From NCBI GenBank assembly GCA_000004985.1, contig GG738885.1: a stretch of 64,000 nt of DNA. One strand, given 5' to 3'. Position numbers and translations under genes: made by a program. Under the pieces are notes generated by a model. The model saw only the letters and a program-made list of their open reading frames with translations. It was not told where the DNA came from and made no database searches. This document shows positions 16,387 to 54,183 of this stretch, piece by piece. Origin of the DNA: Naegleria gruberi (taxonomy: Eukaryota). How positions within the stretch are numbered: the first letter of the stretch is position 1; each line of letters begins with the position of its first letter.

Positions 16387-17496
16387 ATGTGTATAGTGCC
16401 AACAACCTCATTCAGCGAATTTAAAAGTATTGGAGAGGAAGAAGTAACGTCCAACAATGTATTAAGGATGAAAAGCTCTTCTTTAAAGTGCGAGCACTCC
16501 TTAATACGCAATCAGAGCTTACCAACAATAAGCATTCGACCAATCAAGCCACGACAAGTCCTCAACAACATGTTCCACCTCTTTATTGAGATGATTGTTT
16601 ACTTGATGAATGCAATGTACATGGCCACAGTATTTGATGTTGATGAATTGTTCCTCCCGATACAAAAGCAAATAGAAAGCAATCACTTTACCTCATCGTC
16701 ATTATCAATGGATAAGAAACATGCTAAGGAAAATTCTGAAATACCAACAACGAGAGAACTTCCCTTTGAAAGATTAACACAATCAGTTTCTTCTCTCCTT
16801 TCTCCGCCACGATCTCCAGTCAATAAGCAACATGATGCAAAATTATCTCCCAATAAGAGAAATTCTTCCTTCACCGACTTGTTTGCTCAATCTTCTCCTA
16901 GTCCATATTCCAATTTGATTGTCCTGAATGCACACTATGAGCAAATGATTATGGACATTAAGCAGACAAGCAATGTTCCCACCAATAACATGCCAACAAC
17001 AATTTCCACACCAATGAATTATGTACATAATAATGGGAAAGAAACAACAAGGAAAGAAAAGATTAAACAAACACCACTCACAACATGTGATTTCTTGATT
17101 CCAACCATTCAAATTGATTGTCCACCTGTTGAAGAACAGGAAATTTCGAATGTTACTCCACCAGAAACCATTTCTCTATTTGAATCTCCACAAGAACTCA
17201 ACCAAGCAAGAAGGAGGTCCAATTCGTTTTTTCCAGTTCAACCACCAGAGAAAACATTAACTCTAAATGGAACTAATGTAGATCAGCATGAAAATCCCAT
17301 TTTCATTGTAATTCCACCTGTTGAAGCTAGTAGTAATAACAATTCGAATGATTGCTTTGTTTCGAATAATGTGAATAGTGCATTATCAACATTCACAAAA
17401 CCAACCATTACGAGAAAGAAAAATTCCTTTACAAACTTGCTAAAACCAAACTTTCCTCAACCAACAATCTGTAAATTAGCTACACTGCACAACTAA
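16387..17496 (+). CDS. Hypothetical S/T/N-rich protein (369 aa)
   Basis: Long ORF, low complexity, no domain recognised. Confidence 0.4.
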   Translation: MCIVPTTSFSEFKSIGEEEVTSNNVLRMKSSSLKCEHSLIRNQSLPTISIRPIKPRQVLNNMFHLFIEMIVYLMNAMYMATVFDVDELFLPIQKQIESNHFTSSSLSMDKKHAKENSEIPTTRELPFERLTQSVSSLLSPPRSPVNKQHDAKLSPNKRNSSFTDLFAQSSPSPYSNLIVLNAHYEQMIMDIKQTSNVPTNNMPTTISTPMNYVHNNGKETTRKEKIKQTPLTTCDFLIPTIQIDCPPVEEQEISNVTPPETISLFESPQELNQARRRSNSFFPVQPPEKTLTLNGTNVDQHENPIFIVIPPVEASSNNNSNDCFVSNNVNSALSTFTKPTITRKKNSFTNLLKPNFPQPTICKLATLHN

Positions 17497-17791: not shown

Positions 17792-19666
17792 ATGGTTTCA
17801 ACTAGCAAGAAGAAGAACTCTTCTTCAAACACTTCCCTACCAAATAGTCCAGCCATTTCCATCACTTCAGTTGAAAGCAATGACATGAACAATTCACCAT
17901 CTTCTCTTCCTTCCTCTCCTTCGAATTCTTCCAATTTTTTCTCTTCTTCACCGAACAGCAAATCACCTGGTAGAAGACTTCACTTTTTTCCCGCCAAATC
18001 TCCTAAAAAAAAATCTACAACTTCCATCTCTACTGATTCACTTCATGCTGCAAGTAATACTAATCATGGTTGTGATGCGATAGGTGATTATACCTTTTCG
18101 TATGAGGCTGTGCTAGATGATGAGGAGACGAGACAGTGTTTATTGGAATATATGAGGACGATTAGATGTGAGGAAAGTTTGTTGTTTTTAGATCAGGTGA
18201 ATTCATTTCATAGAAAAAGATCAACTGCGAATAGGTGGAGTATGATACAGTCAATATTTGAACAATTCTTTTGTGAGCACTCGAAATATGAATTGAATTT
18301 ACCACAGAGAGTTAAGGATATGATGATTCACACCTATTCGGACGTTGTTGAGGAAATTGCTCATAGGAAGAGAATGAATCTTGATGAGGATACTAATAGT
18401 AGTAGTAATTCCAGATCATCATTGGAACAAGCAAATCAGCCACCACCACAACAACAAGTAAAACAAAACAAGAACAAGAATAATAATGAAAAGAGTAATA
18501 ATAATAATAGAAATTCTAAGGATGATTTGGATGTTTCACTAGGTTCTTTGGATTACATAGATTTGAGTGATTGTGAGGAGGCCCTAAAGAAGGCAGAGAG
18601 TTACATCCTCATCAACTTGAAAGAATATGTCTTTCCAAAGTTTGTCGGCTCTGATCACTTTCAAGGATTCATCTCAACAAAGAGCAAGACCTTTATTAAT
18701 ACTATTGGTACGGTGAAGGCCTTATCTCATTCGTGCTTTGTTGAATCATTGATGGACATGAGGAGGTGTGAAATTAATGTAGATCAAGTGAGAATGATCA
18801 AGAAACATGTCTTTGATACCAGATATTGGGATTGTATCTATCAGAAGGAAACAAGCTATGGTTTTATTTCTTCAAAAAAGTACATTCTTGGTGAGGACGA
18901 TCACGCTAAGGGTGTTTACTTTGCCAAGTGTGAAGTGATCTTTCCTTACTCTGCTGACCAAATTATGAATATCATGACCAATACAAAGAATAGAATTGAA
19001 CACGACAAGAATTTGGAAGATATCAAGAGAATTGGTTATAGAAACAAGTCTGGAACTACAAATTTTAATCCAAATCTGGTACATTCCAGTGATGAAGATG
19101 AGGATACACTCTCTTCCACTAGCTCTGCAATGTCTGACCTTCACGATACTGCATCTTCCAGATCTCATACATCAAATCATTCACATCAACAAACAAATCA
19201 TCATTCGCCAATATCAGGAAAAACCAAATTGGCCACCACATTAACACATGAACGATACAAGCTTGGTTGGCCAATCAAGTCTAGATATTATTTGCTCGCT
19301 CAGAGTATGGTACATGATACAACAGATAACATGTACATTATTGCAAAAAAGTCTTGCAGAATTCCAAATTATGATCCAGATGAAGGAACAAATATTGAAG
19401 CCATCAATATTGGTTGTTGGATGTTTCAACCTTTACTAGATGAAAATCAAAAGCCATGTTGTAAATACATTCAATTTGTTGGAACAGATTTGAGAGGAAA
19501 CATTCCAACATTTATCATTGAAAAGATTGTTAGAAAGAGAACTAGTAACTTTTACAAATCCACCATGAAAATGATCAAAGCTTGCGAAGAAGAGTCCACA
19601 ACAAGACCATTCGATTCAAGTGGTTATTTCGATACTCTAGATGAGAATGGCAGCATGGCTCTCTAA
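17792..19666 (+). CDS. RGS domain + START (StAR-related lipid-transfer) domain protein
   Basis: The RGS-like N-terminal part (YTFSYEAVLDDEETRQCLLEYMRTIRCEESLLFLDQVNSF...) is split by a poly-N/Q insert and resumes at LKKAESYILINLKEYVFPKFVGSDHFQGF. The C-terminal ~220 aa carry START-like motifs (...YFAKCEVIFPYSADQIMNIM..., ...GTDLRGNIPTFIIEKIVRKRTSNFYKSTMKMIKA). Confidence 0.65.
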   Translation: MVSTSKKKNSSSNTSLPNSPAISITSVESNDMNNSPSSLPSSPSNSSNFFSSSPNSKSPGRRLHFFPAKSPKKKSTTSISTDSLHAASNTNHGCDAIGDYTFSYEAVLDDEETRQCLLEYMRTIRCEESLLFLDQVNSFHRKRSTANRWSMIQSIFEQFFCEHSKYELNLPQRVKDMMIHTYSDVVEEIAHRKRMNLDEDTNSSSNSRSSLEQANQPPPQQQVKQNKNKNNNEKSNNNNRNSKDDLDVSLGSLDYIDLSDCEEALKKAESYILINLKEYVFPKFVGSDHFQGFISTKSKTFINTIGTVKALSHSCFVESLMDMRRCEINVDQVRMIKKHVFDTRYWDCIYQKETSYGFISSKKYILGEDDHAKGVYFAKCEVIFPYSADQIMNIMTNTKNRIEHDKNLEDIKRIGYRNKSGTTNFNPNLVHSSDEDEDTLSSTSSAMSDLHDTASSRSHTSNHSHQQTNHHSPISGKTKLATTLTHERYKLGWPIKSRYYLLAQSMVHDTTDNMYIIAKKSCRIPNYDPDEGTNIEAINIGCWMFQPLLDENQKPCCKYIQFVGTDLRGNIPTFIIEKIVRKRTSNFYKSTMKMIKACEEESTTRPFDSSGYFDTLDENGSMAL

Positions 19667-21180: not shown

Positions 21181-22869
21181 TTATTTATTGGAAGGAACTT
21201 TGAGAGAATCAAGATTAAGACCTGATTTACTGTCTTGAGCCTTCTTACTCTTTCTCACAGTTGGAAGTTTAATCTTGAGTGATTCCTTCTTTGTCTTTTT
21301 CTGGAATTCAACTGTTTGCTTGAATCGGTGATGGGTGTCAAGCATCAAAATACAAACTTCTCCTTCCACTGGATCGAAAATCATATCACTAAGATGTTCA
21401 TTCTCTCCTGATGCAAACAAATCTAATTGAGTTTTGACCTTGTCAGCTGCATGTTTGTTGATGTTGACAGATTTGTCACCATTGACATCTAGGAAATCAG
21501 TAAAGATTTCAAAAGCAACTTCGTACTTTTTCTTTTCAATTTCAATTAAATCTCTTTCAGTATAACCCTTTTTCTTCTTCTTTTTACCTTGGCTGTCACT
21601 ACTCATTGAAGTTGATGTTGAACCAGTGTCAGAAATGGCATCTGAAAAGGCGACAGTTAGCTCTTGATCATCATACAAGAATACTTGAATTTCAAATGAT
21701 TTCTCACATAAAATCTTGTAATCTGTAATCTTGTCAAGTAACAAGTAATTTTCCAAGCTCATTTCTTGTTTACAATATTCTTTGAATAATTTTCTAAGTT
21801 TGTTATCTCTCATGGTGTCCATAAGCATGTAGGCGTTTGCTTTCTTCAATCTCTTATTGTTGGCATTGTCAGAATTCATGGAAAAGGCAAGTGACATGAT
21901 GACTACTGGAATAACAATGACAATTGACACACAGACAATAATTAATTGCAAAGTGGTCATGGTAGTTGAGAAATCTCTATAGCTAACCTCCAAAGCCTTA
22001 AAATAATCAACAGAAGGCTTGAATTCCACTTCATACCAAGGTAAATAATCTTGATAGGTGTCAGAGCCAATTAAATTCATGGCAGCTGTAAAGTTTCCAG
22101 CTTTGACCATACTAATAGCTTGTCTCTCAACACTCATAGCCTTCACTGTCTTCATATCATAAATTGTTATATTATGTTTGACAGAATATCTCAATTCATT
22201 TGGCATGTATGCCAACATGTTATTAATTTCAGTATTGAACTTGGTTGAGTAATTTCCATAGAGATTGGCATAGCCAAGAGCAACTGTCTTGTTGTTATTG
22301 GCATAGACTGCTGAACGACATGTGTAAACCATCATGTCTCTATAATAGGAAGTGTCAAGATCCATATTTGAAATTGATGTCAATAAATTATTGCTGCCAA
22401 CGTAGCCAACAATAATGACAGTGAGTAATGCGATGAAACCAAGTAGATTAGCAGTTAAACTAGTCAAATTGACAAGCTTGAAGGATGACAGCTTGAGGGT
22501 AGTTCCACAACACATTCTGATGGCAAATAAAGAATTTGACGAGTGACTTGTCCTAGATCCAGTTCCAGATTTCTTATGGGAAGCAACAGAACTCTTCTTT
22601 TTAGACTCTTTAATGATGGTAGAAGCTGCTGGCTCTGTTGCAAAATTTGCTTTTGGTTTTGGACTGGTTGGAGTTGTTGGCGTTTGACATTTTTCCTTGA
22701 CAAGATGATCCATAGAATGACTCGAGCTAGAAAAGGATGAAGAAGCATCACCTGCTGTAAAATTTGTTGGAGTCAAGTAATAATCACAATTATGAACGTC
22801 TATTCCATTCAATTCTTCGATTGCTTTTTGCATGGAACTGTCAGCTGACACTGAAGTTGATTCTTGCAT
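21181..22869 (-). CDS. Two-TM extracytoplasmic-domain protein with C-terminal RGS domain (paralogue of 902..2407)
   Basis: 562-aa ORF with the same order: TM, ~150-aa helical ectodomain, TM, then an RGS domain (KLFKEYCKQEMSLENYLLLDKITDYKILCEKSFEIQ...KKYEVAFEIFTDFLDVNGDKSVNI...VCILMLDTHHRFKQTVEF). Confidence 0.7.
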   Translation of the reverse strand: MQESTSVSADSSMQKAIEELNGIDVHNCDYYLTPTNFTAGDASSSFSSSSHSMDHLVKEKCQTPTTPTSPKPKANFATEPAASTIIKESKKKSSVASHKKSGTGSRTSHSSNSLFAIRMCCGTTLKLSSFKLVNLTSLTANLLGFIALLTVIIVGYVGSNNLLTSISNMDLDTSYYRDMMVYTCRSAVYANNNKTVALGYANLYGNYSTKFNTEINNMLAYMPNELRYSVKHNITIYDMKTVKAMSVERQAISMVKAGNFTAAMNLIGSDTYQDYLPWYEVEFKPSVDYFKALEVSYRDFSTTMTTLQLIIVCVSIVIVIPVVIMSLAFSMNSDNANNKRLKKANAYMLMDTMRDNKLRKLFKEYCKQEMSLENYLLLDKITDYKILCEKSFEIQVFLYDDQELTVAFSDAISDTGSTSTSMSSDSQGKKKKKKGYTERDLIEIEKKKYEVAFEIFTDFLDVNGDKSVNINKHAADKVKTQLDLFASGENEHLSDMIFDPVEGEVCILMLDTHHRFKQTVEFQKKTKKESLKIKLPTVRKSKKAQDSKSGLNLDSLKVPSNK

Positions 22870-23880
22870 GATTGAGTTGTAGATTTGTTTTTTTTGTATG
22901 AGTTAGAGTTAAAAGACTGTATAGATGATGTATATTTAATGTTATTTAATTGTGATCTGTGACTGATGTCAAGATGTTCAATTAGTCGAATAATGAAGTA
23001 AAATGGTCATTGTAAGTTTAATCTGGATATCTTTGTAATGTCCGTTGAATAGGTTGATGTTCAATAATGGATCGTATGATCAGAAATGAAATCTTTATTT
23101 CTATTTTTGGTTTTAGACACTTTCGAATAATGAAATTGTTGCTCCGCTTTTTCATGGAGAAGGAATATTCGAAAGAGTGTTTGTACTCAAGTCTCTTTTT
23201 ATTGTATTTTGGATTTATTTGAGGTATTTTTTATTGTAAAGTGATATCTAGGGTTTCGAATATTTCAGTTGTGTTGAACACTATCGAATAGTTTAGTGAG
23301 GACAACGACCCATTTCGTCTGAATGCTTCATTTGTATTTAAGTGGCAAAATCAAAGTGCATCAAAACAATTGACAGCTGTAGAGGTATTTCTGTAAAGTA
23401 TTTGATTAGTGGCATATTTCTATTTTGTATGAACCAACAGCAATGCGAATAATCCACCAAATTCCAAAAATTGAATAGAAAATTACTGATTTTAATGTAG
23501 TGAGCAAATAAAATCAGTAGATTCTTCATTAAAATACAAATATTAATGTGAACTTGCGCTTTACGAAACTAGAAGAATGTCAGAAAGGCAAAGAGATGTT
23601 GTAAATAATTTTCAGGAAATTAACAATGAAGAATGAAAATATATTGAGAATTGTTACCCAAACTCGACAGTTTGTTACAACTTTTTAGAATAATCTCTAC
23701 TAAATTTCTAAATATGGAATTTTAATTATTAAAATTGGTGCAAGAGTCCAAAATCTCTTTGAAAAAATTCAATATTGAAAGAAATGGAAATTATAGAGTT
23801 AAGAATTATCAATTTTTCGATTAGATTTTAACCTTGTATGTCAGATTTTTGGCAGGTGACTTTGAAAAAAAACAACTGAC

Positions 23881-24129
23881 ATGCCACTTCGTGAAATCCT
23901 CAAAATTTTGATGGAAGATTTCATCCACTCGATGCTGATTTCCACCATTGTTGTGGACATCTTTGGTTCGAGTAACCAAAGCGAATCCTTTCAAATGCCA
24001 AACCATTACTCAATTCCAAATTGTGACATTTCCCATATTGAGAAATGTATTAATCCGTCCATTGTTATCGTTAATTTACATTTTCATCAGACGATCTTTG
24101 ATATCAAGTACTATAAACTTAAAAGTTAG
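23881..24129 (+). CDS. Small ORF (82 aa) of a 2-member family ending ...VIVNLHFHQTIFDIKY
   Basis: Paralogue of 31084..31338. The conserved C-terminal ~40 codons differ almost only at synonymous sites. Hydrophobic N-terminus. Confidence 0.4.
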   Translation: MPLREILKILMEDFIHSMLISTIVVDIFGSSNQSESFQMPNHYSIPNCDISHIEKCINPSIVIVNLHFHQTIFDIKYYKLKS

Positions 24130-24445
24130 GAAAGATTCTCAAAGAGTTTCGAAAACATTTGGTGAGTTTCCATTAGAGTTCAACAGTAAGGTAAATGATC
24201 AATTGCCATATATGAAGGAGAGACTTTGGAATTATAAAAACTCCAGGCTGTTGTAATTTTTTCTTCCAGATTGCAAATCTTATCTTTGGTAATGTTCTTG
24301 TTTCGTCCAATCAACAAGAAAATAACCCTAAGAGTGGATGTAGTTGGTGGTGTAGCCGGTAGCCGGTTACAGCCGGATGGTAGTGCGGGTAGTCGGAAGC
24401 TGTTGAATACACCTTCAAAGCCAAAAATTAATAAAAGTTCTATTT

Positions 24446-27013
24446 TTAAAATTTAACTTTATGGAAATTCATGAAAAACGAGTATTGGTTGAACATTTCT
24501 TTGCCAGCAATATTATGAATCAAACATTTACCAATTATTTGATTTAGTGCAACATAGCCTGTTGTTACATGAATGTTTGAATCAATTAATCTATATCCAA
24601 TAATTGGATGAACCGAAGAGAGACACTTTTTGATGTTGGTGAAATATACTCTTTGCTCTTTAACCTCAACAAATTGACCAACAAGTAAGGAACCATCCTT
24701 TGCCTTAAATAAAATAAATTCTTTGTTTTGTACAATTGGAATCCATTTCTTGTTTTCAGATTGATTTCTTACCCAAGGATAATTGATGTTAATTTGTTTT
24801 TGAAGTTTTTCAAAATTCGCTCCTCGTTGTTCTAAATTTTTGTGATTGGAAGAGTCATTAAATTGTTTGAAAACTTTGTGTTTCAATTCAAAAAGCAATG
24901 CCCAGAAGAACCTGGCATTTCCCCACTTCAAACAATCTTCAAAAATATGAGAATTCCAATGAAAATTAGGATTTGTAAAATTACCATTACCATATAGGGA
25001 AATGACTTGTTTCCTGAAATTGAAATGTTTCAATTTTGCAATTTCAATATTTGAAGGTGAAACCAAATCTTGAATCAAAGAAAGTACGTATTCTACGTGA
25101 TTTGACCAACATATTATATGTTTCTTCTTCAAACTGAATGAAACATCACAGTGATTCTTATTATTAATAAGAAAATCATACATAATTGGGCAACTAAAAA
25201 CCACGAATTCCAAAAAATGATCTGCTGAACAATCATTGTAATCTTTTGCAATCATTTTCAAAGGTTTACCATGATTGTTTGTATACTTGTCCATAACAGA
25301 CTGAAAATCACTTAAAATGTTGGTGTAATTGAAATATTTGAAAAATTTTTTAAGGTGTCTCCTTAAATCACCTTGAATAGAACCATGCATTAATTCAACA
25401 GTTGAATTTTCAAAAATATCACAATCCTTAATTTGTAAAAACGGACACTTCATTTGAGTATTGTTACTTTGTCGAACTTTTTCTTTTACCTGTTTGGATT
25501 TTTTGGACTTGGAATCAATCTGCATATCTTTGATTTGAATATCAGCGACTGTAATAAACTTGTAGCCATTACATGAGGTACCAATTGATAATTTTTGTTG
25601 CATTTCAATTGCTTCAGTAACAGTTCTTAAAGGATAGACTAAAGGTGTTGAAATGTCATTAGGACATTTACAATAATCTCCTTTTGGGCATTTACATTTA
25701 GAACATGTATAGCTTTCAAGAAATAATGATAGCCATCTTTGTACAGAATCCCAAATCCAAGGACCTATTAGAATTCGAATCTTTTCAATTGAATCAGTGT
25801 AAGAGTTATAAACATCAATTGATTTTCCATTAATTTCATTCAACTCTTCAACTAGTTTTGTTGCTAATTTGAATTGGGAAATATTTGTTTTTGAATTTCC
25901 TAGTAATGAAATTGATTCCATATTCGAAGTAAGAAAGCTTCGATTAAAATTCAATAAGGTGAAATATAATCCTGCTGTTTTGTCTGTACCTGTTCTATGT
26001 TTTCTAAATTCATCAATATAATACATAATGACAATTGGTGTTTCGTCTGATGAACATTTCTTTTTCAATTCTTGAAATCCTTTTGATGCGTATGGTTCAT
26101 AATCGAATAATGGTTCTTTTGTTAAATCCTCTGGCTTATTACCATTATGTATCTTTTTTGCAATAAAAGGATCTGCATATAAATATTTGATACAATTTAC
26201 AACACCATAGTATACATATTGGTCCTGTTCAGTATCATTTTCATCAATTATTGGTTGTTGAGTTTTGAAATATTTACATCTGGTTTGAATTTGATCGTAT
26301 GAAAGACATTCTTGACCACATAATTTCAGTATTTCAGTTGTATAATTGTATTGTTCTTTTGTAAACTGTTTGGATTTCAACATCATGAAACTATGCCATT
26401 CTAATTCATTAGCGAATGGAGCAAACTTATTTGAAGGATCAGTTACTTTGTATGGGTTGTTGACAGAAAAATTTTCTAAAACTAAATCTTCAATATCTTC
26501 ATAAGGATTGACATCTTTCAAATTGATATCAGTATCATTTTGAATTTGTGAGATTTTCCACTTAATATCTGTTAGCTCTGTATTTTTATCAATTGGTGTC
26601 CATGTTGATTCAAAACCTCCACACTCCAATGTATGATGTTTAAAATTGATATGATCAACATATTCCTCCATTGTGGTGTAATGTTTATCACAACACACTT
26701 TTGGAAACTTGATGGAATGTTCTTTTGTAATATGTTTCAACAACGTTTCAGATTTGACACAACTATAATCACATAAACAACATCCAAGTTTTTCCTTAGT
26801 AAAATTTTTACACTCAGAGTTTTCACAGTTACATTTAATTTGAATCTTGAATTTTGCACTTGAAATTGGTTGGTAAAATACTGTGTGTAAAGATTTCTTG
26901 CAAGAATCACAGCGTCTTTCAAAATAGATACCTTGTTCCTTGTTATTTTGTAAAGACATTTTTTTTCGTCTAAAAACTGGCTTTCGACTGAAAATTCGAA
27001 TCAAAAAAAACAC
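24446..27013 (-). CDS. Transposase-like protein (CACTA/En-Spm 'Transposase_21'/KDZ-type core), 855 aa
   Basis: Cys-rich N-terminus (CDSCKK...CNCENSECKNF...CCLCDYSC). Core region IVIMYYIDEFRKHRTGTDKTAGLYFTLLNFNRSFLTSNMESISLLGNSK resembles the DGF...S.WPV.L...NLPP..R.....L..L.PGPK block of CACTA transposases. Further CxC motifs (YTCSKCKCPKGDYCKC) and an H-rich block occur downstream. The likely start is the second Met (MSLQNN...). Confidence 0.55.
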   Translation of the reverse strand: MFFLIRIFSRKPVFRRKKMSLQNNKEQGIYFERRCDSCKKSLHTVFYQPISSAKFKIQIKCNCENSECKNFTKEKLGCCLCDYSCVKSETLLKHITKEHSIKFPKVCCDKHYTTMEEYVDHINFKHHTLECGGFESTWTPIDKNTELTDIKWKISQIQNDTDINLKDVNPYEDIEDLVLENFSVNNPYKVTDPSNKFAPFANELEWHSFMMLKSKQFTKEQYNYTTEILKLCGQECLSYDQIQTRCKYFKTQQPIIDENDTEQDQYVYYGVVNCIKYLYADPFIAKKIHNGNKPEDLTKEPLFDYEPYASKGFQELKKKCSSDETPIVIMYYIDEFRKHRTGTDKTAGLYFTLLNFNRSFLTSNMESISLLGNSKTNISQFKLATKLVEELNEINGKSIDVYNSYTDSIEKIRILIGPWIWDSVQRWLSLFLESYTCSKCKCPKGDYCKCPNDISTPLVYPLRTVTEAIEMQQKLSIGTSCNGYKFITVADIQIKDMQIDSKSKKSKQVKEKVRQSNNTQMKCPFLQIKDCDIFENSTVELMHGSIQGDLRRHLKKFFKYFNYTNILSDFQSVMDKYTNNHGKPLKMIAKDYNDCSADHFLEFVVFSCPIMYDFLINNKNHCDVSFSLKKKHIICWSNHVEYVLSLIQDLVSPSNIEIAKLKHFNFRKQVISLYGNGNFTNPNFHWNSHIFEDCLKWGNARFFWALLFELKHKVFKQFNDSSNHKNLEQRGANFEKLQKQININYPWVRNQSENKKWIPIVQNKEFILFKAKDGSLLVGQFVEVKEQRVYFTNIKKCLSSVHPIIGYRLIDSNIHVTTGYVALNQIIGKCLIHNIAGKEMFNQYSFFMNFHKVKF

Positions 27014-27018
27014 AATAA

Positions 27019-27958
27019 ATGCCAGGTAAGTACTTCCACATCAACCTTGTAACTTTTCCATCAACTGCCAATTTTACATCATTTCAGCATCATCACCATC
27101 AGTAAAAGTAAGTAGTTTAGCACCATTTATTCAACATAAATTATTCTAATAACAAAGAAGAAGACTAAATTAACCATAACATGTTTACCAGAAGCCACAT
27201 ATGAAAAGTTGGCTGACTGTTATCCCAAGGCTGCAGTGGGATGGAAGGATACTCAACGAGCGTAAGTAAGCAAATTGTTAGTTATTTATTTGATTTTATA
27301 TAGACTAAAAAGAGAAGTTATGCAATGTATTCGAATTTACTGTAAGCGAAAAGGGATTCCCCAAAATGATACTGCCATGAGTTCATGTAAAGATTGTCTG
27401 CAATTAACTTTTGGTGAAACATTGTTCAGAAAACATGTTAATGGATTGTCAACGGATACATATAAATACGTGCAAAGTATGTAAGTGAAGTTTATCCTTA
27501 AATTATTTATTAATTATTTTCCAACAATTAATTAGAGCTATTGTTATGTCAGTAAGATATTCAGCAATCTGTGGAGTTCTTTTAAAAGAAAGAGTCTAAT
27601 AGAATTAAAGAAAAAAGAGAAGCCAAAAAGAAAGAAGAATTCCAATGTAGAAGTTTCTAATATAGAAGGGGTTCCATCCTCAATTCAAGCAACAGCTATT
27701 CAACCTTCTACCTCTTCACCAACAAGAGAACATGTCAGAGCCAACAATGGTCAATTCTCTTCATTGCAGAGCTATGTTGCAGAAGATGAACAAGTTGTTT
27801 TTTTAACACTTGTTAAAGATTGGATCAAAAAACCTGACACAAGAGCAACACAACCTTCAGCAGACGCAATTAATTTGCTTGATATGGAATCAGATGGTGC
27901 AGATCTTTATTCAGATAATGGTCAATCAGACTCAGAAGAAGCACAACAATTGTAAATA
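27019..27958 (+). CDS. 5-exon gene encoding a basic Cys-containing N-terminal module and acidic C-terminal tail (putative transposon accessory/DNA-binding protein)
   Basis: GTAAGT donors and (T)nAG acceptors give MPASSPS(VK)|KKTKLTITCLPEATYEKLADCYPKAAVGWKDTQRA|LKREVMQCIRIYCKRKGIPQNDTAMSSCKDCLQLTFGETLFRKHVNGLSTDTYKYVQSI|KIFSNLWSSFKRK...VAEDEQVVFLTLVKDWIKK...SDNGQSDSEEAQQL*. Frames are open only across the proposed exons. The tiny first exon (ATGCCAG) is the weakest part. Confidence 0.5.
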
Positions 27959-28059
27959 AATAAATCAGTTTTACTCAAATTATGAAAATTGTAATGGTCA
28001 ACAGAGTAAATTAAGGGAAACTTTCAGTCAAATACCAACACACTAAAAGCCGCATAGAA

Positions 28060-28140
28060 ACTGAATGTTCACCGAATAGTCACTGAATGTTTACCATATA
28101 ATAACTGAATGGTTACTGAATATTTATTGAATAGTTACCC
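28060..28140. repeat. Degenerate tandem repeat, 6 units of ~ACTGAATRKTTAC
   Basis: gaatgttcacc gaatagtc actgaatgtttacc ... actgaatggtt actgaatatttattgaatagttaccc. Confidence 0.5.
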
Positions 28141-28938
28141 ACCAATTTCATTCCTTTACCCAACAATCAACCGACTACCAACCAACTAACACTGAACTAA
28201 AACGGTCAGGAGAGTATGGGCTGATATTCGATTAATTTCTGGAAAATCGTTCAGTTGTTTTCGGAAACAAGTTGGGGAAAATTAGGGTTGTAGTCGGTGA
28301 TAGTAGGGTTGTGGATGGGGTTTAGACGGAACATAGCCAACTAAAAACCAACTATAACACTGTCTATTACCCAAGTACTCCACTCTTAGGACAAGGATAC
28401 GCCACAACAATGCATCCTTGAATAATAATAGTAGCATGCTCATTATTGGAATAACAGGTGTGGATTCGGAATAGTGGATTTTGCTTGAATTCTTCAGAGG
28501 TAAATTACAAGAAATTCTCTGGGGATGAATCGTTATAATTTAACCAATTCGTTGAATTGCTGATCTTAACATTAAATAATCTGTATGGAATGGATCCACT
28601 AATCTCTTGTTGCATCACCATTTGAATCTCCATAGGAAATGGTTAAAATCTCTTCATCATTAAGAGAGTCGTTATATTTTTTTTAAGGCGCGAAATTCTT
28701 TTTCGCAAGTTGTATAATTCTGGAATGTTTCTAGTTGATGTACACAAATCATTGTACTATCCATGGAAGGAGACCTTGGAAATGACGAGTATAAGATAAG
28801 CTGTAGTGACACAATCAGGATGTGCTCAATACTCTCCATAGAATAACTAACAGCATGGTTTCATGAAATGGAATGTGGACTACACTTGCAATATGCTGGT
28901 CATCAACTGCATCACGTCTTGTGTTGGGGTGCTTCGCT

Positions 28939-29543
28939 TTAAGTGTTTATTAAGGTAAGGTTCATTTTACGACTTTGCCATTTAGAAGCGGTAATGCCAA
29001 GATCAACAGCATAGGACAAGATACGGAGTGCCATATTCTTTTGAATTGTTTTTAGAGTTCCACCTTCATCGACCTTAAACTTCTTCTCATTTTCATCACT
29101 GGTGCTGACCATTGGAAAAACAACTCCATTCTTGAATGTTGAGGTAATTAATTTCTGGATTTCTTCAAATTCTGGACTCTCTGAAAGCCCTGCTAACAAC
29201 TGACCTTCATCTTTAACTGTTTCGAAGGTGGATCCCTTCCAATTCAAGATAACTCCTTCAAAACCCAAATAACGACTGGAATAATTGTCAAATTTGGTTA
29301 TCACAAACATTATTCTAATTGAATGAAGTTCAACACATTGTCGATTTTTCCAGCCAAAATTTTCTTGAATTCTTCAATTGATTTGACATGGGCAACATCT
29401 ATTGTAAAGATAACCAACTGAATTCTATTCTCTTCATCGTGATTGTTTGGAATAGTTTCACTTCCGAGAAATTGTTTTTTTGGATCAATAAGGCCCCTGA
29501 ATAAGTGTTCAAAATAATTCTTGGCAGGTTCTTTTTGAATCAC
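28939..29543 (-). CDS. Hypothetical protein split into two abutting ORFs (77 aa + 123 aa) by a frame break at 29310 (TAATG)
   Basis: ORFs 29310..29543 and 28939..29310 are same-strand and overlap by one base at the TAATG junction (stop TAA 29310-29312, start ATG 29308-29310). No GT..AG pair is available for an intron. This points to an indel or assembly error near the scaffold gap, or to a pseudogene. Confidence 0.35.
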
Positions 29544-29555
29544 ACCATTTGTTTT

Positions 29556-29650
29556 TAAGGTGTTGATGAATCACGTTTCGGATTTCTTTGTAATGAATCA
29601 CGTTCAGAATTTTGGAATGGATCACGTTTCGAATCTAATTGAAAGTAACA
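29556..29650. repeat. Three tandem ~27-bp repeats sharing (G)ATGAATCACGTTYSGRAT
   Basis: gatgaatcacgtttcggatttctttgta / atgaatcacgttcagaattttggaatg / gatcacgtttcgaatctaattg. The block lies just upstream of the start of the 29543 minus-strand ORF. Confidence 0.5.
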
Positions 29651-29790
29651 TGACAACAAGCTTGTTTCAAACAAGAAAACAAAAAATGGGATCAACAACA
29701 TCTACCCTCTATTACTATGCAGAAAACGATGATTTCGATCGTATTCAAAAGAAATCTCTAACAGTTATTATTATGATGCATCTGGTATTT

Positions 29791-29840
29791 NNNNNNNNNN
29801 NNNNNNNNNNNNNNNNNNNNNNNNNNNNNNNNNNNNNNNN
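29791..29840. other. Assembly gap (run of 50 N)
   Basis: Literal n characters. Flanking annotations are unreliable. Confidence 1.
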
Positions 29841-31083
29841 GGAATTAGGTATACGTGGAAAGAAGACATGTTAAAGGAATTCTTGAAAAAGGATGAAACT
29901 AGTTGATGTTTCTTCTTGCACTGATAGGATTCTTTGCTTTGGTGATTTCTTTATTGATTTCTGCAGAATCAAATGCTCCAAATCCAGAAACAAAAGTTGA
30001 CAATGAAATCCATAAGAATAACACAAGCCAGATTACAATCACGTTTGCCACTAAAGATATAGATTGGATAAACTGTCAATCATGAAACAAAGACTGAAAC
30101 CAGCCCTTCAAATAATAGCCCTTCCACAGATTTGAATCTTCCAAGTAATGGTAAAGAAGAATTAAATCAACAAGACAATTGCCCTGAAATCTCCAATGAA
30201 AGTAATCCTCCTTTAGATAATGGCCCTTCCACCAATTTGAACCAAATAAGCACTAACCAAGTTTCGAATCAACAAGAAATAATCGGTAATAGAGAAGGGA
30301 GAGAGATGGCCATAAAATTATTATAGAACAAATCTCTTGTCCAAATAAAAATTATGACATGGTGCTCAAGTTTTGAAAAATTGTCACTTTTACAATGTGA
30401 AATTAAAATCTCATAAAATTGAGCAAGTGACATGGCTCCACGAAATGAAGAGTATCATTATATCACCAAGAGAACATTTCAGGGAATTTTTTACAAATTT
30501 AAATAATTTGTAAGAAAGGTAAGATTCGAATTTGTTGAACAAACAAATAAATAATTAAATTATTATTGTTCGTGCCATGAATTGCACTTTCGCATACATC
30601 ACAGTGTTGGAACCATTCGTAAATGGCTCGTAATGGACATGTAGATACCTTTTTTGTTATCTGAAACATTGTTTTCGTATGGATAGCAAATATCTCATAG
30701 TTCATTTGCCATTTATATGCTAAGCGAGCTTTTTGGATAGTGCGAGGACTCTGGTGATTGCAAGGGAGATTTCAAGGATACAAACTTTCGAATAATACTA
30801 TTGGAAAGGATCATAATTAGAATGTTTTTTTGTTTCAATCAAAAATGATTAACTGACAAAGATTTGATATTAACATTCGAGGTTGACAACAAGAATGCAA
30901 TTCATTCAATATTTGATATAATTGTTAATAGTATTCGTTTGGGAGATTGTCGAATATTAATATTCGAAACTCCATGTTTAAGCAAGGTCCAAAAATGCTT
31001 GGTATTGAAATTAAATACAAACAACTTTACCCCATTTGTCCTATGCGAATCCTTCAATCAATTGAAAAAAAAGAAACCACATC

Positions 31084-31338
31084 ATGCTTCTCCACAATCT
31101 ATTCGAAACTCTTATAACTAATCTTCTACTCTCCATTTACATGTCAACCATAATAGACTTGGATTTTATAGAAGAAGCCCACGAGTATACAATATCAAAT
31201 TTTTCAAATATTGGTAATTACTCTTTACCTAATGGTGACATTTTCCAAATTGAGAAATTAAGTGATCCTTCCATGGTTATTGTAAACTTGCATTTCCATC
31301 AGACGATATTTGATATCAAATATTTTCAAATGCTGTGA
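31084..31338 (+). CDS. Small ORF (84 aa), second member of the ...VIVNLHFHQTIFDIKY family
   Basis: C-terminal YSLPNGDIFQIEKLSDPSMVIVNLHFHQTIFDIKYFQML compares with YSIPNCDISHIEKCINPSIVIVNLHFHQTIFDIKYYKL at 23881..24129. DNA differences in the shared block are almost all third-codon-position changes. Confidence 0.4.
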   Translation: MLLHNLFETLITNLLLSIYMSTIIDLDFIEEAHEYTISNFSNIGNYSLPNGDIFQIEKLSDPSMVIVNLHFHQTIFDIKYFQML

Positions 31339-31557
31339 GAACAAGTAGTGGATGCAACCAAGGATTTTTTGAATATTACAATGTAAATAACGAACGGTAT
31401 TTTTCAAGATGAGGAAAGTACAATAACAAACCTTCAAAATAAATCAAATTCTAACAAATGTCGAACAATAAGTTTTTATCCAAAATACATCAAGTTCTCT
31501 ACTTGAGATTAAGGAACGAGATCGTTCATTACGAAAATTCATATTCAGAACAATGTA

Positions 31558-31630
31558 GCCCGTCTAGCTCAGTCGGTAGAGCGCAAGGCTCTTAACCTTG
31601 TGGTCGTGGGTTCGACCCCCACGGTGGGCG
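31558..31630 (+). tRNA. tRNA-Lys (anticodon CTT)
   Basis: gcccgtctagctcagtcggtagagcgcaaggctCTTaaccttgtggtcgtgggttcgacccccacggtgggcg. It folds as a cloverleaf with A box (tagctcagtcggtaga), B box (ggttcgaccc) and a T-run downstream. Confidence 0.9.
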
Positions 31631-31763: not shown

Positions 31764-33271
31764 TTACAATTTGTTGGAATTTTTTTCAACATATTCCTTA
31801 ACATGTTCTCTTGGTGTGAAATAAAGTGGATACTTTTCAGAATCAATATATAATAAGGATTGATCCAATGATGATGGTGGCATTTCATTTCCATTATCGT
31901 GAGATAATTTGAAATGTCTAATTGCATTGATAATTGCAAAATGAATTTCAGTAAGAGCAATTCTTGATCCTGGACATTTTCTAGCACCAACTCCAAATCT
32001 TTATCAAACAATTCATTCGATTATTGTAAATAACAACAGAAATATCCTATACTTACGGAACTGACACATAATTATTGACAGGTGCCAAATCAGATCCCTT
32101 CTCGTGACGTTCAGGAATAAATTCACTACCTCTAGGAATAAACTCATCTTTCAATGTTCCCCATCTTTGCATGGCAATCACAATCGTGTCCTTTGGCACA
32201 TTAAATCCTCCAATTTCAGTATCCTTACTCAATTGTCTTCCCATTGTAAGATAGGAAAATGAATTTAATCTCAAAACTTCTTCAATGAAATTCTTTGTAT
32301 GTTTCAATTTTTTGAATTGTTCCATTGTAATTTCAAGTCCATTTTCTAAAGTTAATTCATCAATTGTTGGTTGACCAAAAACTTCAACTGATTCCTGGAA
32401 AAGTTTTTCTTGATATTCTGAATGTTGAGCTAATCTGTATAAACTATTGTTGACCATTCTGACGGTAATGTCTGTACCGGCTTGTAAGAAGGTGATCATG
32501 ACATTTTCAACTCTTTCTTCTGGATATTCTTGATCTTTGGCTCTTTCTTCTAAAATTTCTAATAATCTTGGCTTTTCGGTTGGATTAGTTTTGAATCTCT
32601 TGATGCAATATCTGCCGTATTCCAATGATTTATCCCAGACATGTTCGAAATGTTTGTATTCTTGAGTTTTGAAATACTTGTAGAGAGGTGGTTTGTTATC
32701 TGAATAATTATTAGAATCGAATAGAACTTCAGAATGAAATCTTACCTAACAAAATGGCCAAATCAAGTCCAACAATTGAATATTTTACAAAATCACGAAG
32801 ATCGAATGGGAATGATTGAACTGTTTCATCAGTCAACTTGACTCCCTATTAATTTTCACCAAAATTCACACTTTCGAATAATACAACAAACAACAACTTA
32901 CAAGGAAAACCTTCAAAACAGCATCAAAGGCATATCTCGAAGTGGCTTCAAAGTTTTTGGCAAATTTGTACTTTTCACTTCCTTCCACTGGTTGCAAATG
33001 TTTAACTAATCTTCTCAACAATTCGCCATTCAATTCCATTATTACTATTATAATTATTACTTTGATGATATGGACATGATGTAAGAATTTCCTTAGATGC
33101 TTTGTTATTTTGCTCGGAAGATGTTTGGAAATATCTCATGTTAACATGAGCTTGCTTATTCATCACCTGTTTGCTCCCGATCATTGAGGATGATAAATTA
33201 GAGAGTAAACATGATGATGAGTGTTTCATCAAGACGACAGCAGCCAACTTGTTATTCTTCTTTAATAGCAT
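31764..33271 (-). CDS. Cytochrome P450, multi-exon (at least 4 exons; 5' end uncertain)
   Basis: Last exon (31764..31997) encodes FGVGARKCPGSRIALTEIHFAI..., the heme-binding FxxGxRxCxG. The preceding exon (~32064..32698) has the I-helix FLQAGTDITV, K-helix EEVLRL and PERH. Upstream exons of ~100 nt lie between GTAAGx donors and AG acceptors (introns ~32699-32745 and 32846-32901). The N-terminal exon(s) are not resolved. Confidence 0.65.
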
Positions 33272-38008: not shown

Positions 38009-39469
38009 TTATGGTTGTTGAGTAGTTTTCACAGATTGTACATTTGCAAGCATTTCCTTACAGAGCTCAGAGCTTTCGAATTGTAAATAGAGAGGAAACA
38101 CCATTGTACTAATCACATCCTTCTCCAAAGAATCGAACAAATCTTCCACATATCCTTCTTCCTCTATTCTCTTCTTTGCTGCATTAATTAGCTTTTTACT
38201 GGTATTCACCTCAAACACAGCATTATCCTCTAAAAAGGTATCGAAAATATACGAGGCCTTGACATGATGTTCTGGAATGATAATTTCTGAAGGCGGAATG
38301 AAGATGGTAATATCGCACGATTCATCCACAGCAAGATTTGATCCTGATTTCTTAATCAGATCGGAATTGTAGGTGAATTTCTTACAGGCCTTACATAAAA
38401 TCTTGTACTGAGCTATTTCTTCAATAAATATTGCCAATTCCAAACTGAAAATATTAGAGAGATAGGCTTTAAAGTATCTTCTCATTGTAGAATTTTCCAA
38501 AACTTCCTGTACAGTCAACTTATCTGATCCAACAGAGGCAATACTCACTCTTCCCTCCTCCACTTCTTCCTGCTGGAGAGTTTGTTCGATATTGAGAATG
38601 GATCTGGTTTTTCTAGCAGTTTGGAAAATGAAAAACATGTCAGGGAATAATTTCTTCAAATCATTCAAATATTGATCTGGTGATTGTTCTACTTCTGAAA
38701 CCAAATTGCTCGTCTCTGAACTGGCCTTTCCCAAATTGAAAATAAATTTACCATAATCAGGTCTTTCAGATAAATCCTTATAGAAATAACTAGTTTCGAA
38801 TGAACCATGACTAATAATATGCATTGTAAACAATGAAAACATATCCATATGTCTAATATCTTTCAATGAAGGTAATCTCAATTTCTTATCTTCCTTAAAC
38901 ATGAATTTCAGAATGGTTGGAAGTGCCAATGCATGTCTCACTAAACTTGCCTTTGGAACCATTAATAAACCATGTTTGATAGAGTTTGAGATTTTACAAT
39001 GCAAGAGATTGGTTCCTTTCATTGATTTTACGCACTTTTCATTGTTTTCTTGATGGCAAATCACTGGAACAACGTTCATCATTAAGAAACTGCTCAAATA
39101 ATTACTAATTGATGTGATGACATGTTGACACATGGGACAGCCGAACCATTTAATGACAATGAGGAGTACTCTGTGTTTTTCACTCAATCTGAGAACAGAA
39201 TGTCCACTTGGATGGACAATCATCTCTTCCAAAACATTCAAAATGTCAAAAGTTGCTGAGGCGTTTGACATGACCGTGTCAGCACTCTTGGAAATATCGG
39301 ATGAAGCATCTATTGTATTTCTTCTATTACATGTTTGTTCTCCAGCTAAATCTTGAGACAGGGAAACTTCGTCCTTGCTATGTCTTTTTAAATTTGATTG
39401 GGTGCCAACTGTCAAAAATCTAACGCTATTTGTTTTCTTTGAAGATGAAGCGGAGTTGGTATCACTCAT
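38009..39469 (-). CDS. Thioredoxin-fold (CxxC, AhpC/TSA- or PRXL2-like) domain + RGS-like domain protein
   Basis: N-terminal half has ...RVLLIVIKWFGCPMCQHVITSIS..., a WxxC(P)xC in a beta-alpha context. The C-terminal half is RGS-like (MRRYFKAYLSNIFSLELAIFIEEIAQYKIL...IPEHHVKASYIFDTFLEDNAVFEVN...FDSLEKDVISTMVFPLYLQF). Confidence 0.55.
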   Translation of the reverse strand: MSDTNSASSSKKTNSVRFLTVGTQSNLKRHSKDEVSLSQDLAGEQTCNRRNTIDASSDISKSADTVMSNASATFDILNVLEEMIVHPSGHSVLRLSEKHRVLLIVIKWFGCPMCQHVITSISNYLSSFLMMNVVPVICHQENNEKCVKSMKGTNLLHCKISNSIKHGLLMVPKASLVRHALALPTILKFMFKEDKKLRLPSLKDIRHMDMFSLFTMHIISHGSFETSYFYKDLSERPDYGKFIFNLGKASSETSNLVSEVEQSPDQYLNDLKKLFPDMFFIFQTARKTRSILNIEQTLQQEEVEEGRVSIASVGSDKLTVQEVLENSTMRRYFKAYLSNIFSLELAIFIEEIAQYKILCKACKKFTYNSDLIKKSGSNLAVDESCDITIFIPPSEIIIPEHHVKASYIFDTFLEDNAVFEVNTSKKLINAAKKRIEEEGYVEDLFDSLEKDVISTMVFPLYLQFESSELCKEMLANVQSVKTTQQP

Positions 39470-39959: not shown

Positions 39960-40030
39960 TCGGGTGTGGTATAGTGGTAGCATTCCAGACTGTCACTCTG
40001 GCGACCCGGGTTCAATTCCCGGCACTCGAG
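39960..40030 (+). tRNA. tRNA-Asp (anticodon GTC)
   Basis: tcgggtgtggtatagtggtagcattccagactGTCactctggcgacccgggttcaattcccggcactcgag. U1 as in eukaryotic tRNA-Asp. Anticodon stem ccaga/tctgg. B box ggttcaattcc. Confidence 0.8.
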
Positions 40031-54110: not shown

Positions 54111-54183
54111 GCCCGTCTAGCTCAGTCGGTAGAGCGCAAGGCTCTTAACCTTGTGGTCGTGGGTTCGACCCCCACGGTGGGCG
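54111..54183 (+). tRNA. tRNA-Lys (anticodon CTT), identical duplicate of 31558..31630
   Basis: Same 73-nt sequence. The downstream ~20 nt (tattttaatatttt) is also shared with the first copy. Confidence 0.9.

What the first reader, a model, noticed from the sequence alone, without database searches (positions are those of the whole stretch)
23881..31338. Two-member small-ORF family conserved at the protein level (synonymous-only divergence)
ORFs at 23881..24129 and 31084..31338 end in ...PN[CG]DI..IEK...PS[IM]VIVNLHFHQTIFDIKY. Over the block gttatcgttaatttacattttcatcagacgatctttgatatcaag versus gttattgtaaacttgcatttccatcagacgatatttgatatcaaa, every difference is a third-position synonymous change. 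That pattern is expected for purifying selection on a translated sequence, not for a neutral repeat. Both have hydrophobic N-termini and no recognisable domain. Both are + strand, ~7 kb apart, flanking the putative transposon and the gap region.
Basis: seen in the sequence. Interest (0 to 1): 0.55.

Follow-up and report, generated by a model that had tools for sequence, protein, structure and literature searches.

The report
Two unannotated small Naegleria protein genes
Two roughly 83-codon reading frames in this Naegleria gruberi window are real paralogous protein-coding genes that the annotation missed, they are short versions of a nearby uncharacterised 369-residue protein, and their function is unknown.

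Summary
ORFs 23881..24129 and 31084..31338 (+ strand) are 43% identical in protein over their full length (E 8e-21). DNA similarity is limited to a 106-113 nt block near the 3' end and stops at the ORF borders.

In the quoted 45-nt block, all 7 differences are third-position and synonymous. Over the whole ORF, synonymous sites are saturated (pS 0.73) and nonsynonymous sites are not (pN 0.32; Fisher P 3.6e-7). Only + frame 1 is open in both copies.

The window is Naegleria gruberi. Neither ORF is in the annotated proteome. A metagenome contig 98.4% identical to the second locus carries two substitutions in the ORF, both synonymous, while indels occur only in the flanks.

Each ORF starts at an ATG preceded by an in-frame TGA 5-6 codons upstream. 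Each also has little room downstream. They are therefore complete single-exon genes rather than exons.

There is a third, longer member: NAEGRDRAFT_51039 (16387..17496, 369 aa). It aligns collinearly with the second ORF (z 8.6 against shuffles).

I found no Pfam, PDB, Rfam or confident structural match. The most likely reading is a lineage-restricted orphan family in which the two short genes keep only the conserved core of the long protein. The idea that they modulate the long paralog, as microProteins do, is inference only. Interest is modest.

The parts
23881..24129 (+). p1: unannotated single-exon small gene, 82 codons plus a TAG stop
   Evidence: The ORF is. It is 43% identical to p2 over its full length, E 8e-21. 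The synonymous excess is shown. It is not on record as a called protein.
31084..31338 (+). p2: unannotated single-exon small gene, 84 codons plus a TGA stop
   Evidence: A 98.4%-identical metagenome contig keeps the ORF intact with 2 synonymous changes. p2 aligns collinearly with p3 at z 8.6.
16387..17496 (+). p3: the annotated long paralog, NAEGRDRAFT_51039 / XP_002674182.1, 369 aa. Its residues ~57-192 correspond to the whole of p1 and p2
   Evidence: It is 100% identical to the N. gruberi predicted protein. Collinear alignments to p2 and p1 are. hhalign matches motif 2 with P 7e-4.
24055..24111 (+). p1 C-terminal conserved motif, PSIVIVNLHFHQTIFDIKY
   Evidence: Identical to p2 except I/M. 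The differences are silent third-position changes. It corresponds to p3 SNLIVLNAHYEQMIMDIKQ.
31267..31323 (+). p2 C-terminal conserved motif, PSMVIVNLHFHQTIFDIKY
23884..23964 (+). p1 N-terminal hydrophobic helix motif, residues 2-28 (PLREILKILMEDFIHSMLISTIVVDIF)
   Evidence: Hydropathy is. It aligns with p2 and with p3 MFHLFIEMIVYLMNAMYMATVFDVDELF.
31087..31170 (+). p2 N-terminal hydrophobic helix motif, residues 2-29 (LLHNLFETLITNLLLSIYMSTIIDLDFI)
   Evidence: AF2 models a helix at residues 2-20, pLDDT ~60-70. The equivalent helix in the p3 core has pLDDT 85-93.
23862..23880 (+). p1 leader TTGAAAAAAAACAACTGAC, containing an in-frame TGA at 23863-23865
   Evidence: Read from the sequence. It is 81% similar to the p2 leader (D18). 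A-runs 10-25 nt before the ATG are typical of the other genes in the window.
31062..31083 (+). p2 leader TTGAAAAAAAAGAAACCACATC, containing an in-frame TGA at 31063-31065
   Evidence: (D18).

Best explanation
p1 (23881..24129) and p2 (31084..31338) are two genuine, translated, single-exon genes of Naegleria gruberi that the genome annotation missed. They encode ~83-residue cytosolic or peripherally membrane-associated proteins and are old paralogs. Both belong to a small Naegleria-restricted orphan family. Its annotated member, NAEGRDRAFT_51039 (p3, 16387..17496, 369 aa), lies 7.5 kb upstream on the same strand.

The short proteins consist of only the part conserved across the family. That part is an N-terminal hydrophobic helix, a short acidic/polar linker with an (I/F)E(K/R)L element, and a C-terminal hydrophobic motif, (I/V)V(L/N)N.H(F/Y).Q.I.DIK. 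They lack p3's 55-residue N-terminal extension, its ~40-residue SP-rich insert and its ~175-residue low-complexity tail.

Shown: homology, purifying selection on + frame 1, complete-ORF boundaries, absence from the annotation, and the relationship to p3.

Inferred, with no direct evidence: the conserved helix and C-terminal motif pack together into a small interaction module. On that view the short paralogs bind the same partner as p3, or p3 itself, and so compete with or modulate the long protein. This is how microProteins (domain-only paralogs) work. The biochemical activity of the family is unknown.
For: Identity of the window: one search matches p3 at 100% to N. gruberi, with accessions.

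Coding and selection:
- p1 and p2 are homologous over their full length, E 8e-21.
- Nothing outside the ORFs is similar, in DNA or in any frame.
- pS is 0.73 against pN 0.32, P 3.6e-7. Both halves are significant. The C-terminal block has pN/pS 0.10.
- Every other frame of the conserved block has stops.
- Frame +1 has the best codon-usage score of the six frames in both ORFs.

Population-level check: a contig 98.4% identical to 30617-31452 has 2 substitutions in the 255-nt ORF, both synonymous. The ~580 nt of flanks have 11 differences, including two 1-nt indels.

Complete genes rather than exons:
- Both alignments start at the ATG.
- An in-frame TGA lies 5-6 codons upstream of each ATG.
- There is no AG between that TGA and the ATG in p1.
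- The leaders carry the A-run seen before other genes in the window.
- The stops lie within 1-2 aligned codons of each other.
- Only 317 nt (p1) and 220 nt (p2) separate the stop from a convergent ORF and a tRNA-Lys gene respectively.

Link to p3:
- Two collinear BLASTP segments and a consistent three- and four-way alignment.
- The gapped local score of p2 vs p3 is 93.7 against 38.9 +/- 6.4 for shuffles, 0/1000. For p1 vs p3 it is 3/1000.
- A model built from p3's two motifs ranks the p1 and p2 C-terminal motifs first among 1334 six-frame ORFs.

Core conservation: p3 and its metagenomic ortholog P0003 are 54% identical in the core against 35% overall. The part retained in p1 and p2 is therefore the conserved part.
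Against: - There is no expression evidence. No transcript-derived or annotated protein identical to p1 or p2 is on record.
- The codon-usage log-likelihood (0.03-0.06 bits per codon) is well below the window's long genes (0.22-0.40). It is no better than chance ORFs of similar length (mean 0.08).
- No homolog of the short form was found outside N. gruberi-like DNA. This covered 1.84 billion representative proteins and JGI metagenomes, so there is no cross-species test of the short ORFs.
- The link to p3 is weaker for p1 (3/1000 shuffles). By profile-profile comparison it rests on 19 columns only (probability 26%, P 7e-4).
- The AF2 models are low confidence (pLDDT 51 and 57). They disagree on whether the C-terminal motif is strand or helix.
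- The proposed interaction or competition mechanism has no direct support.
- The strain comparison is not significant on its own (Fisher P 0.19).
Confidence: 0.6

Rival explanations
1. The two ORFs are exons of larger, unannotated multi-exon genes rather than complete genes.
For: N. gruberi has spliceosomal introns. Clear GTAAGT donors are visible nearby at 27024-27490. GT dinucleotides overlap or abut both stop codons: AAAAGTTAGG in p1 and GCTGTGAGAA in p2. The long paralog p3 has N- and C-terminal extensions.
Against: An in-frame TGA lies 5-6 codons before each ATG, and p1 has no AG acceptor in between. Homology begins exactly at the ATG and ends at the stop, with nothing similar in any frame upstream or downstream. 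The candidate donors would leave different phases in the two copies. Only 220-317 nt remain before a tRNA gene or a convergent ORF. The strain contig has a 1-nt indel 22 nt after the p2 stop. tblastn found no similarity to the p3 tails near p1 or p2.
Confidence: 0.1
2. They are truncated relics of duplicated p3-like genes. They were once under selection but are now non-functional pseudogene fragments that happen still to be open.
For: They are unannotated, have weak codon bias and lack the flanking parts of p3. There is no expression evidence.
Against: Silent sites are saturated, yet both copies keep an intact ATG-to-stop frame of almost the same length. This is in 33% GC DNA, where an 83-codon open frame has a chance of about 0.002 (my calculation from base composition). 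The synonymous excess is seen in both halves. The only polymorphisms seen in p2 are synonymous. Two independent relics would not share the same start and stop positions.
Confidence: 0.1
3. The conserved block is a non-coding DNA or RNA element (a dispersed repeat, protein-binding palindrome or structured RNA), and the ORFs are incidental.
For: The DNA similarity is short, 106-113 nt at 80-81%. p2 contains a perfect 18-bp palindrome, ATATTTGATATCAAATAT, at 31306-31323 (I6).
Against: Differences concentrate at third codon positions and are silent. Protein similarity extends about 120 nt further 5' than DNA similarity does. The palindrome is not conserved in p1. The folding energies are no better than shuffles (z -0.03 and -0.98) and the two folds differ. 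There is no Rfam match.
Confidence: 0.03
4. The two copies are terminal or flanking repeats of a mobile element that carries the 855-aa ORF.
For: They are direct repeats 7.2 kb apart that bracket a large ORF with no homologs.
Against: There are no LTR- or TIR-like repeats, and the only long direct repeat is the coding block itself. Silent sites are saturated, which is unlike element termini that are identical at insertion. The 855-aa ORF has no transposase or integrase signature in Pfam or PDB. A third family member lies outside the bracket.
Confidence: 0.02

Closest known systems
NAEGRDRAFT_51039 (XP_002674182.1, UniProt D2VNN3), an uncharacterised 'predicted protein' of Naegleria gruberi, encoded at 16387..17496 in this window
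   Same: It shares the N-terminal hydrophobic helix motif, the (I/F)E(K/R)L element, a PS dipeptide and the C-terminal N.H(F/Y).Q.I.DIK motif, all in the same order. It is on the same strand and 7.5 kb away.
   Different: It is 369 aa against 82-84 aa. It has a 55-residue N-terminal extension starting MCI, a ~40-residue SP-rich insert between the motifs and a ~175-residue low-complexity tail. Identity to p2 and p1 over aligned columns is only 31% and lower. It is itself of unknown function, with no Pfam or PDB match.
microProteins (miPs): short domain-only paralogs of larger proteins that act by titrating them, such as Id proteins vs bHLH factors or LITTLE ZIPPER vs HD-ZIPIII (from general knowledge, not tested here)
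   Same: p1 and p2 are small single-module proteins that are paralogous to the conserved core of a longer protein encoded in the same genome.
   Different: Nothing shows that the shared core is a dimerisation or interaction domain, that the proteins meet, or that p3 has an activity to be inhibited. This is an analogy only.
Unannotated small ORF genes (smORFs / sORF-encoded proteins below ~100 codons) that gene predictors routinely miss
   Same: Their length is below 100 codons. They are absent from the annotation. They were detected only through comparative evidence of purifying selection.
   Different: Most smORF claims rest on Ribo-seq or cross-species conservation. Here the evidence is within-genome paralogy plus one near-identical strain.

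Membership tests
Naegleria orphan family typified by NAEGRDRAFT_51039 | Statistically supported, collinear sequence similarity to the conserved core of NAEGRDRAFT_51039 | tested here: met
   The p2 vs p3 gapped local score is 93.7 against 38.9 +/- 6.4 for shuffles (0/1000). p1 vs p3 is 3/1000. BLASTP gives two collinear segments. By hhalign the support is weaker, motif 2 only, P 7e-4, probability 26%.
Naegleria orphan family typified by NAEGRDRAFT_51039 | Presence of both conserved motifs (N-terminal hydrophobic helix and C-terminal N.H[FY].Q.I.DIK) in the same order | tested here: met
   A motif model built from p3 alone finds the p1 and p2 C-terminal motifs as the top non-self hits in the window, E 0.003-0.005. 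The N-terminal motif was not recovered by that model.
Protein-coding gene under purifying selection | Excess of synonymous over nonsynonymous divergence in one frame, with that frame open in all copies | tested here: met
   pS 0.73 vs pN 0.32, P 3.6e-7. The other five frames of the conserved block have stops. The two strain differences are both synonymous.
Protein-coding gene under purifying selection | Evidence of transcription and translation | not testable with these tools
   No RNA-seq, EST, Ribo-seq or proteome data could be queried. Exact-sequence look-ups found no called product.
Protein-coding gene under purifying selection | Codon usage typical of the genome's genes | tested here: inconclusive
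   Frame +1 is the best of the six frames. Its score (0.03-0.06) is below real genes (0.22-0.40) and within the range of chance ORFs.
microProtein (domain-only inhibitory paralog) | A small protein related to only one conserved module of a larger protein in the same genome | tested here: met
   p1 and p2 align to p3 residues ~57-192 only. That region is the part conserved between p3 and P0003, 54% vs 35% overall.
microProtein (domain-only inhibitory paralog) | The shared module mediates protein-protein interaction, and the small protein binds and modulates the large one | not testable with these tools
   The AF2 models are low confidence. No complex prediction or experiment was possible.
Transposon terminal repeats / dispersed non-coding repeat | DNA-level repeat extending beyond any ORF, with TIR/LTR structure or neutral divergence | tested here: not met
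   Similarity is confined to the ORF. The divergence is codon-position biased. There is no transposase signature in the intervening ORF.
Known protein domain families (Pfam-A) or solved structures | Significant profile match | tested here: not met
   No Pfam family at E<=1 for p1 or p2, and only noise for p3 and P0003. The best PDB profile hit has E 0.11.
Structured non-coding RNA | Rfam match, or a conserved and unusually stable secondary structure | tested here: not met
   Only the tRNA-Lys was found in 22900-32000. Folding z-scores are -0.03 and -0.98, with different structures.

The most novel reading that the evidence does not exclude
p1 and p2 are microProtein-like regulators. On this reading, Naegleria evolved short 'core-only' copies of a lineage-specific, probably phospho-regulated protein (NAEGRDRAFT_51039) by local duplication and truncation. 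The short copies bind that protein or its partner through the shared helix and C-terminal motif and tune its activity. This would be the first such regulatory trio described in a heterolobosean. It would also give a way into an otherwise completely orphan protein family.
Probability: 0.2. Interest if true: 0.45.

Novelty: new member of a known kind. Interest (0 to 1): 0.3.

Why it matters
It adds two real genes to the Naegleria gruberi gene set. It also shows that within-genome paralog comparison can recover small genes that predictors miss in an AT-rich protist genome, where chance ORFs of this length are common. It defines the conserved core of an orphan Naegleria protein family: two motifs, about 80 residues. 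The short and long forms sit in one 15-kb cluster, which suggests a testable regulatory relationship. Beyond that the finding is ordinary. Missed small ORFs and lineage-specific orphan families are expected in any first-generation eukaryotic annotation, and nothing here points to a new kind of system.

Tried and rejected
1. Homologs of p1/p2.
- A word-indexed search with the p1+p2 profile found only a near-identical metagenome fragment.
- A full HMMER scan of 1.84 billion representatives with p1+p2+p3 core found only p3, that fragment, one p3 ortholog and one repetitive false positive.
- A search with the four-sequence core profile added nothing.
- Two JGI metagenome scans, one with peptide patterns and one with a back-translated HQTIFDIKY pattern, found nothing.

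2. Exact-sequence look-ups of p1, p2, p3 and two alternative-start versions of p1 found nothing on record.

3. Structure. Two AF2 runs gave pLDDT 51 and 57, too poor for fold searching, so no fold search was run.

4. An internal repeat (motif 1 resembling motif 2) looked plausible by eye, especially in p3 (NAMYMATVFDVDE / NAHYEQMIMDIKQ). A model built from the C-terminal motifs did not recover the N-terminal ones, so I do not claim it.

5. More copies in the window. tblastn and motif-HMM scans of all six frames found none.

6. Codon usage as independent coding evidence was uninformative.

7. RNA element and palindrome explanation: rejected.

8. Transposon association: no support.

9. Literature. 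No paper mentions PRJEB11402, NAEGRDRAFT_51039 or small ORFs in Naegleria.

10. The shared A-rich leader first looked family-specific, but it is a general feature of gene starts in this window.

Full report
**What the window is.** The 369-aa ORF at 16387..17496 is 100% identical to a 'predicted protein' of Naegleria gruberi (NAEGRDRAFT_51039, XP_002674182.1, on a 362,555-bp scaffold). The rest of the window fits a eukaryote. GC content is 30-37%. Long ORFs lie on both strands and include RGS, RWP-RK and P450 domains. There are eukaryotic tRNA genes and GTAAGT introns.

**Checking the observation.**
- BLASTP aligns them from Met1 to within two or three residues of the stop, with 43% identity, 67% positives and E 8e-21.
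- At the DNA level only 106-113 nt are alignable (24005-24117 vs 31217-31329, 80-81%). Nothing outside the ORFs is similar in DNA or in any translated frame.
In the 22-codon C-terminal block, differences by codon position are 1/2/10.
- Nei-Gojobori counts for all 81 aligned codons give pS 0.73 (saturated) against pN 0.32, Fisher P 3.6e-7.
- The N-terminal half (P 1.9e-4), the C-terminal half (P 4.2e-4) and the C-terminal block (pN/pS 0.10, P 3.5e-6) each show the same excess.
- Every other frame of the conserved block is interrupted by stops in one or both copies.

However, 'synonymous-only' describes only the most conserved 15-16 codons.

**Independent check from a second strain.** The only database protein matching p1/p2 is a 65-aa fragment (P0001) from metagenome run ERR1078381.
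- Its 965-bp contig is 98.4% identical to window 30617-31452.
- Within the 255-nt p2 ORF there are two differences, both synonymous (ACC>ACT and TTG>TTA). The ATG and the stop are intact.
- The ~580 nt of aligned flank carry 11 differences, including two single-base indels. One of these lies 22 nt after the stop.
- The contrast is not significant alone (P 0.19), but it points the same way.

**Complete genes or exons?**
- In both copies an in-frame TGA lies 5-6 codons upstream of the ATG (23863-23865 and 31063-31065). In p1 there is no AG between that stop and the ATG, so the frame cannot be entered from an upstream exon.
- The two leaders are 81% similar (TTGAAAAAAAA[C/G]AA..., D18). An A-run 10-25 nt before the ATG also precedes most long genes in the window, so these look like ordinary N. 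gruberi gene starts.
- The stops fall within one or two aligned codons of each other.
- Downstream there are only 317 nt before the end of a convergent 855-aa ORF (p1). For p2 there are 220 nt before a tRNA-Lys(CUU) gene.

I conclude that they are complete single-exon genes.

**They are not annotated.** No protein identical to p1, p2 or alternative-start versions is on record. A word-indexed search that would have caught any annotated N. gruberi protein containing these sequences returned only the metagenome fragment.

**A third, longer member.** While reading the ORF list I noticed that the annotated 369-aa protein p3 (16387..17496, + strand) contains ...LFIEMIVYLMNAMYMATVFDVDELF... and ...SNLIVLNAHYEQMIMDIKQ... 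in the same order as the N- and C-terminal motifs of p1 and p2.
- BLASTP finds both segments collinearly, E 0.002 and 0.006 for a single comparison.
- MAFFT aligns the three proteins sensibly, also lining up an (I/F)E(K/R)L element and a PS dipeptide.
- A gapped local alignment of p2 to p3 scores 93.7 against 38.9 +/- 6.4 for 1000 shuffles (z 8.6, 0/1000). p1 to p3 reaches 3/1000.
- A motif model built from p3 alone ranks the p1 and p2 C-terminal motifs first among 1334 six-frame ORFs of the window.
- Profile-profile comparison is weaker: 19 columns, P 7e-4, probability 26%.

I accept p3 as a distant paralog, with less certainty for p1 than for p2. A full HMMER scan of 1.84 billion representative proteins found one further relative, P0003 (302 aa, on a 967-bp metagenome contig). 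It is an ortholog of p3, 54% identical in the core and 35% overall. The region that p1 and p2 retain is therefore the region conserved among the long proteins. p1 and p2 lack p3's N-terminal 55 residues, its SP-rich ~40-residue insert and its ~175-residue low-complexity tail.

**What the proteins might be.**
- No Pfam family matches p1, p2, p3 or P0003. The best PDB profile hit has E 0.11.
- The AF2 models are poor, with pLDDT 51 for p2 and 57 for the p3 core. The only confident element is the N-terminal helix (pLDDT 85-93 in p3). The C-terminal motif is modelled as a hairpin in one model and a helix in the other.
- The N-terminal helix is hydrophobic but borderline for a membrane span (Kyte-Doolittle 1.53-1.66). 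In p1 it contains E, D, H and K.
- No signal of a structured RNA or a conserved palindrome explains the block. The perfect 18-bp palindrome in p2 is not conserved in p1.

**Most likely explanation.** p1 and p2 are two translated, unannotated small genes. They are old local duplicates belonging to a Naegleria-restricted orphan family, and they encode only the family's conserved core.

The mechanistic step is inference. A helix and a hydrophobic C-terminal motif conserved against a background of saturated silent sites suggest a small packing or interaction module. Core-only paralogs next to a long paralog carrying a disordered, SP-rich tail resemble microProteins, which act by competing for the same partner or by binding the long form. 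I give about 0.75 to 'real translated genes', about 0.65-0.7 to 'paralogs of p3' and about 0.2 to the microProtein-like mechanism.

**Rivals.**
- Exons of bigger genes (0.1). This is countered by the upstream in-frame stops, the shared boundaries and the lack of downstream room.
- Decaying relics of p3-like genes (0.1). This is countered by two intact frames with identical boundaries despite saturated silent sites, in DNA where an 83-codon open frame has about 0.002 probability. That figure is my own calculation from the base composition.
- A non-coding repeat or element (0.03), and transposon termini (0.02). Both are contradicted.

**Weak points.**
- There is no expression evidence of any kind.
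- Codon usage is uninformative.
- There is no cross-species test of the short form. Other Naegleria genomes could not be searched, and no relative turned up in metagenomes.
- The whole N. gruberi genome could not be scanned for further members.

**Novelty and interest.** These are new members, two unannotated genes, of a known kind of thing: small ORF genes missed by annotation and a lineage-specific orphan family. A specialist would not be surprised. The modest interest lies in the clean comparative signal and in the short/long paralog arrangement, which is testable.

Noticed in passing
window 6489..7013, 7826..8236, 9070..9546, 11775..12230 (all + strand): A cluster of four paralogous small proteins shares a C-terminal ...VLHLSQ.QA.K.L.C.LSTLKRRFYELK...WP... 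region. The two I tested match the Pfam RWP-RK domain at E 1e-6 and 5e-4, at or just below the gathering score.
   Followed up: partly
It has C2H2-like cysteine/histidine patterns near the N-terminus but no Pfam or PDB match (best E 0.25-0.44, to zinc fingers). I found no terminal repeats around it. A divergently oriented multi-exon + strand gene with GTAAGT introns starts right next to it (27020-27955). The transposon identity is not supported.
   Followed up: partly
window 31306..31323: A perfect 18-bp palindrome, ATATTTGATATCAAATAT, is centred on GATATC inside the p2 codons for IFDIKY. As a result the antisense strand also reads IFDIKY (minus-strand ORF 31258..31437). It is not conserved in p1, so it is probably a coincidence of codon choice.
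   Followed up: yes
L001 (Logan ERR1078381_48460, 965 bp) and L002 (ENA ERZ929261): A metagenome run (ERR1078381, PRJEB11402) contains DNA 98.4% identical to N. gruberi window 30617-31452. A close Naegleria strain was therefore present in that sample. The contig begins with Illumina adapter sequence (CAGACGTGTGCTCTTCCGATCT). It diverges strongly from the window between 31452 and the tRNA-Lys gene.
   Followed up: partly
window 31558..31630, 54111..54183, 39960..40030 (all + strand): There are two tRNA-Lys(CUU) genes and one tRNA-Asp(GUC) gene. The first tRNA-Lys lies 220 nt downstream of p2.
   Followed up: no
window 902..2407 (-), 21181..22869 (-), 17792..19666 (+), 38009..39469 (-), 42407..47125 (-): The window has an unusual density of RGS-type proteins. 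The proteins at 902..2407 and 21181..22869 are clear paralogs with the same membrane-spanning architecture. Pfam RGS was confirmed for 21181..22869 and for 17792..19666, and the latter also has a weak START match. p3 and p1 each sit next to one of these genes.
   Followed up: partly
window 29792..29841: This is a 50-N assembly gap. It is flanked on the left by three degenerate 24-27-nt tandem units (29566-29644, ATGAATCACGTTTCGGATTT...). Further upstream there are three 22-nt units at 28050-28115.
   Followed up: no
window 28939..29310 and 29310..29543 (- strand): Two adjacent minus-strand ORFs (123 aa and 77 aa) abut at 29310 and may be a single gene split by a frameshift or a short intron. 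There is no significant Pfam match.
   Followed up: no
window 32053..32625 (- strand): This is a cytochrome P450 exon (Pfam p450, E 5e-25, profile positions 245-398). Further exons are evidently on either side. It is convergent with p2 and the tRNA-Lys gene.
   Followed up: no
P0004 (636 aa, from the representative search): This highly repetitive protein, with ~50-residue tandem units (LMLFFLLYNIIVKKVFQTDVILSSLQYHCEEGFSNWCYSFFSTISLWRRFFK), scored E 2.7e-4 against the family profile through 8 short stretches. I judged it a compositional or repeat false positive.
   Followed up: no
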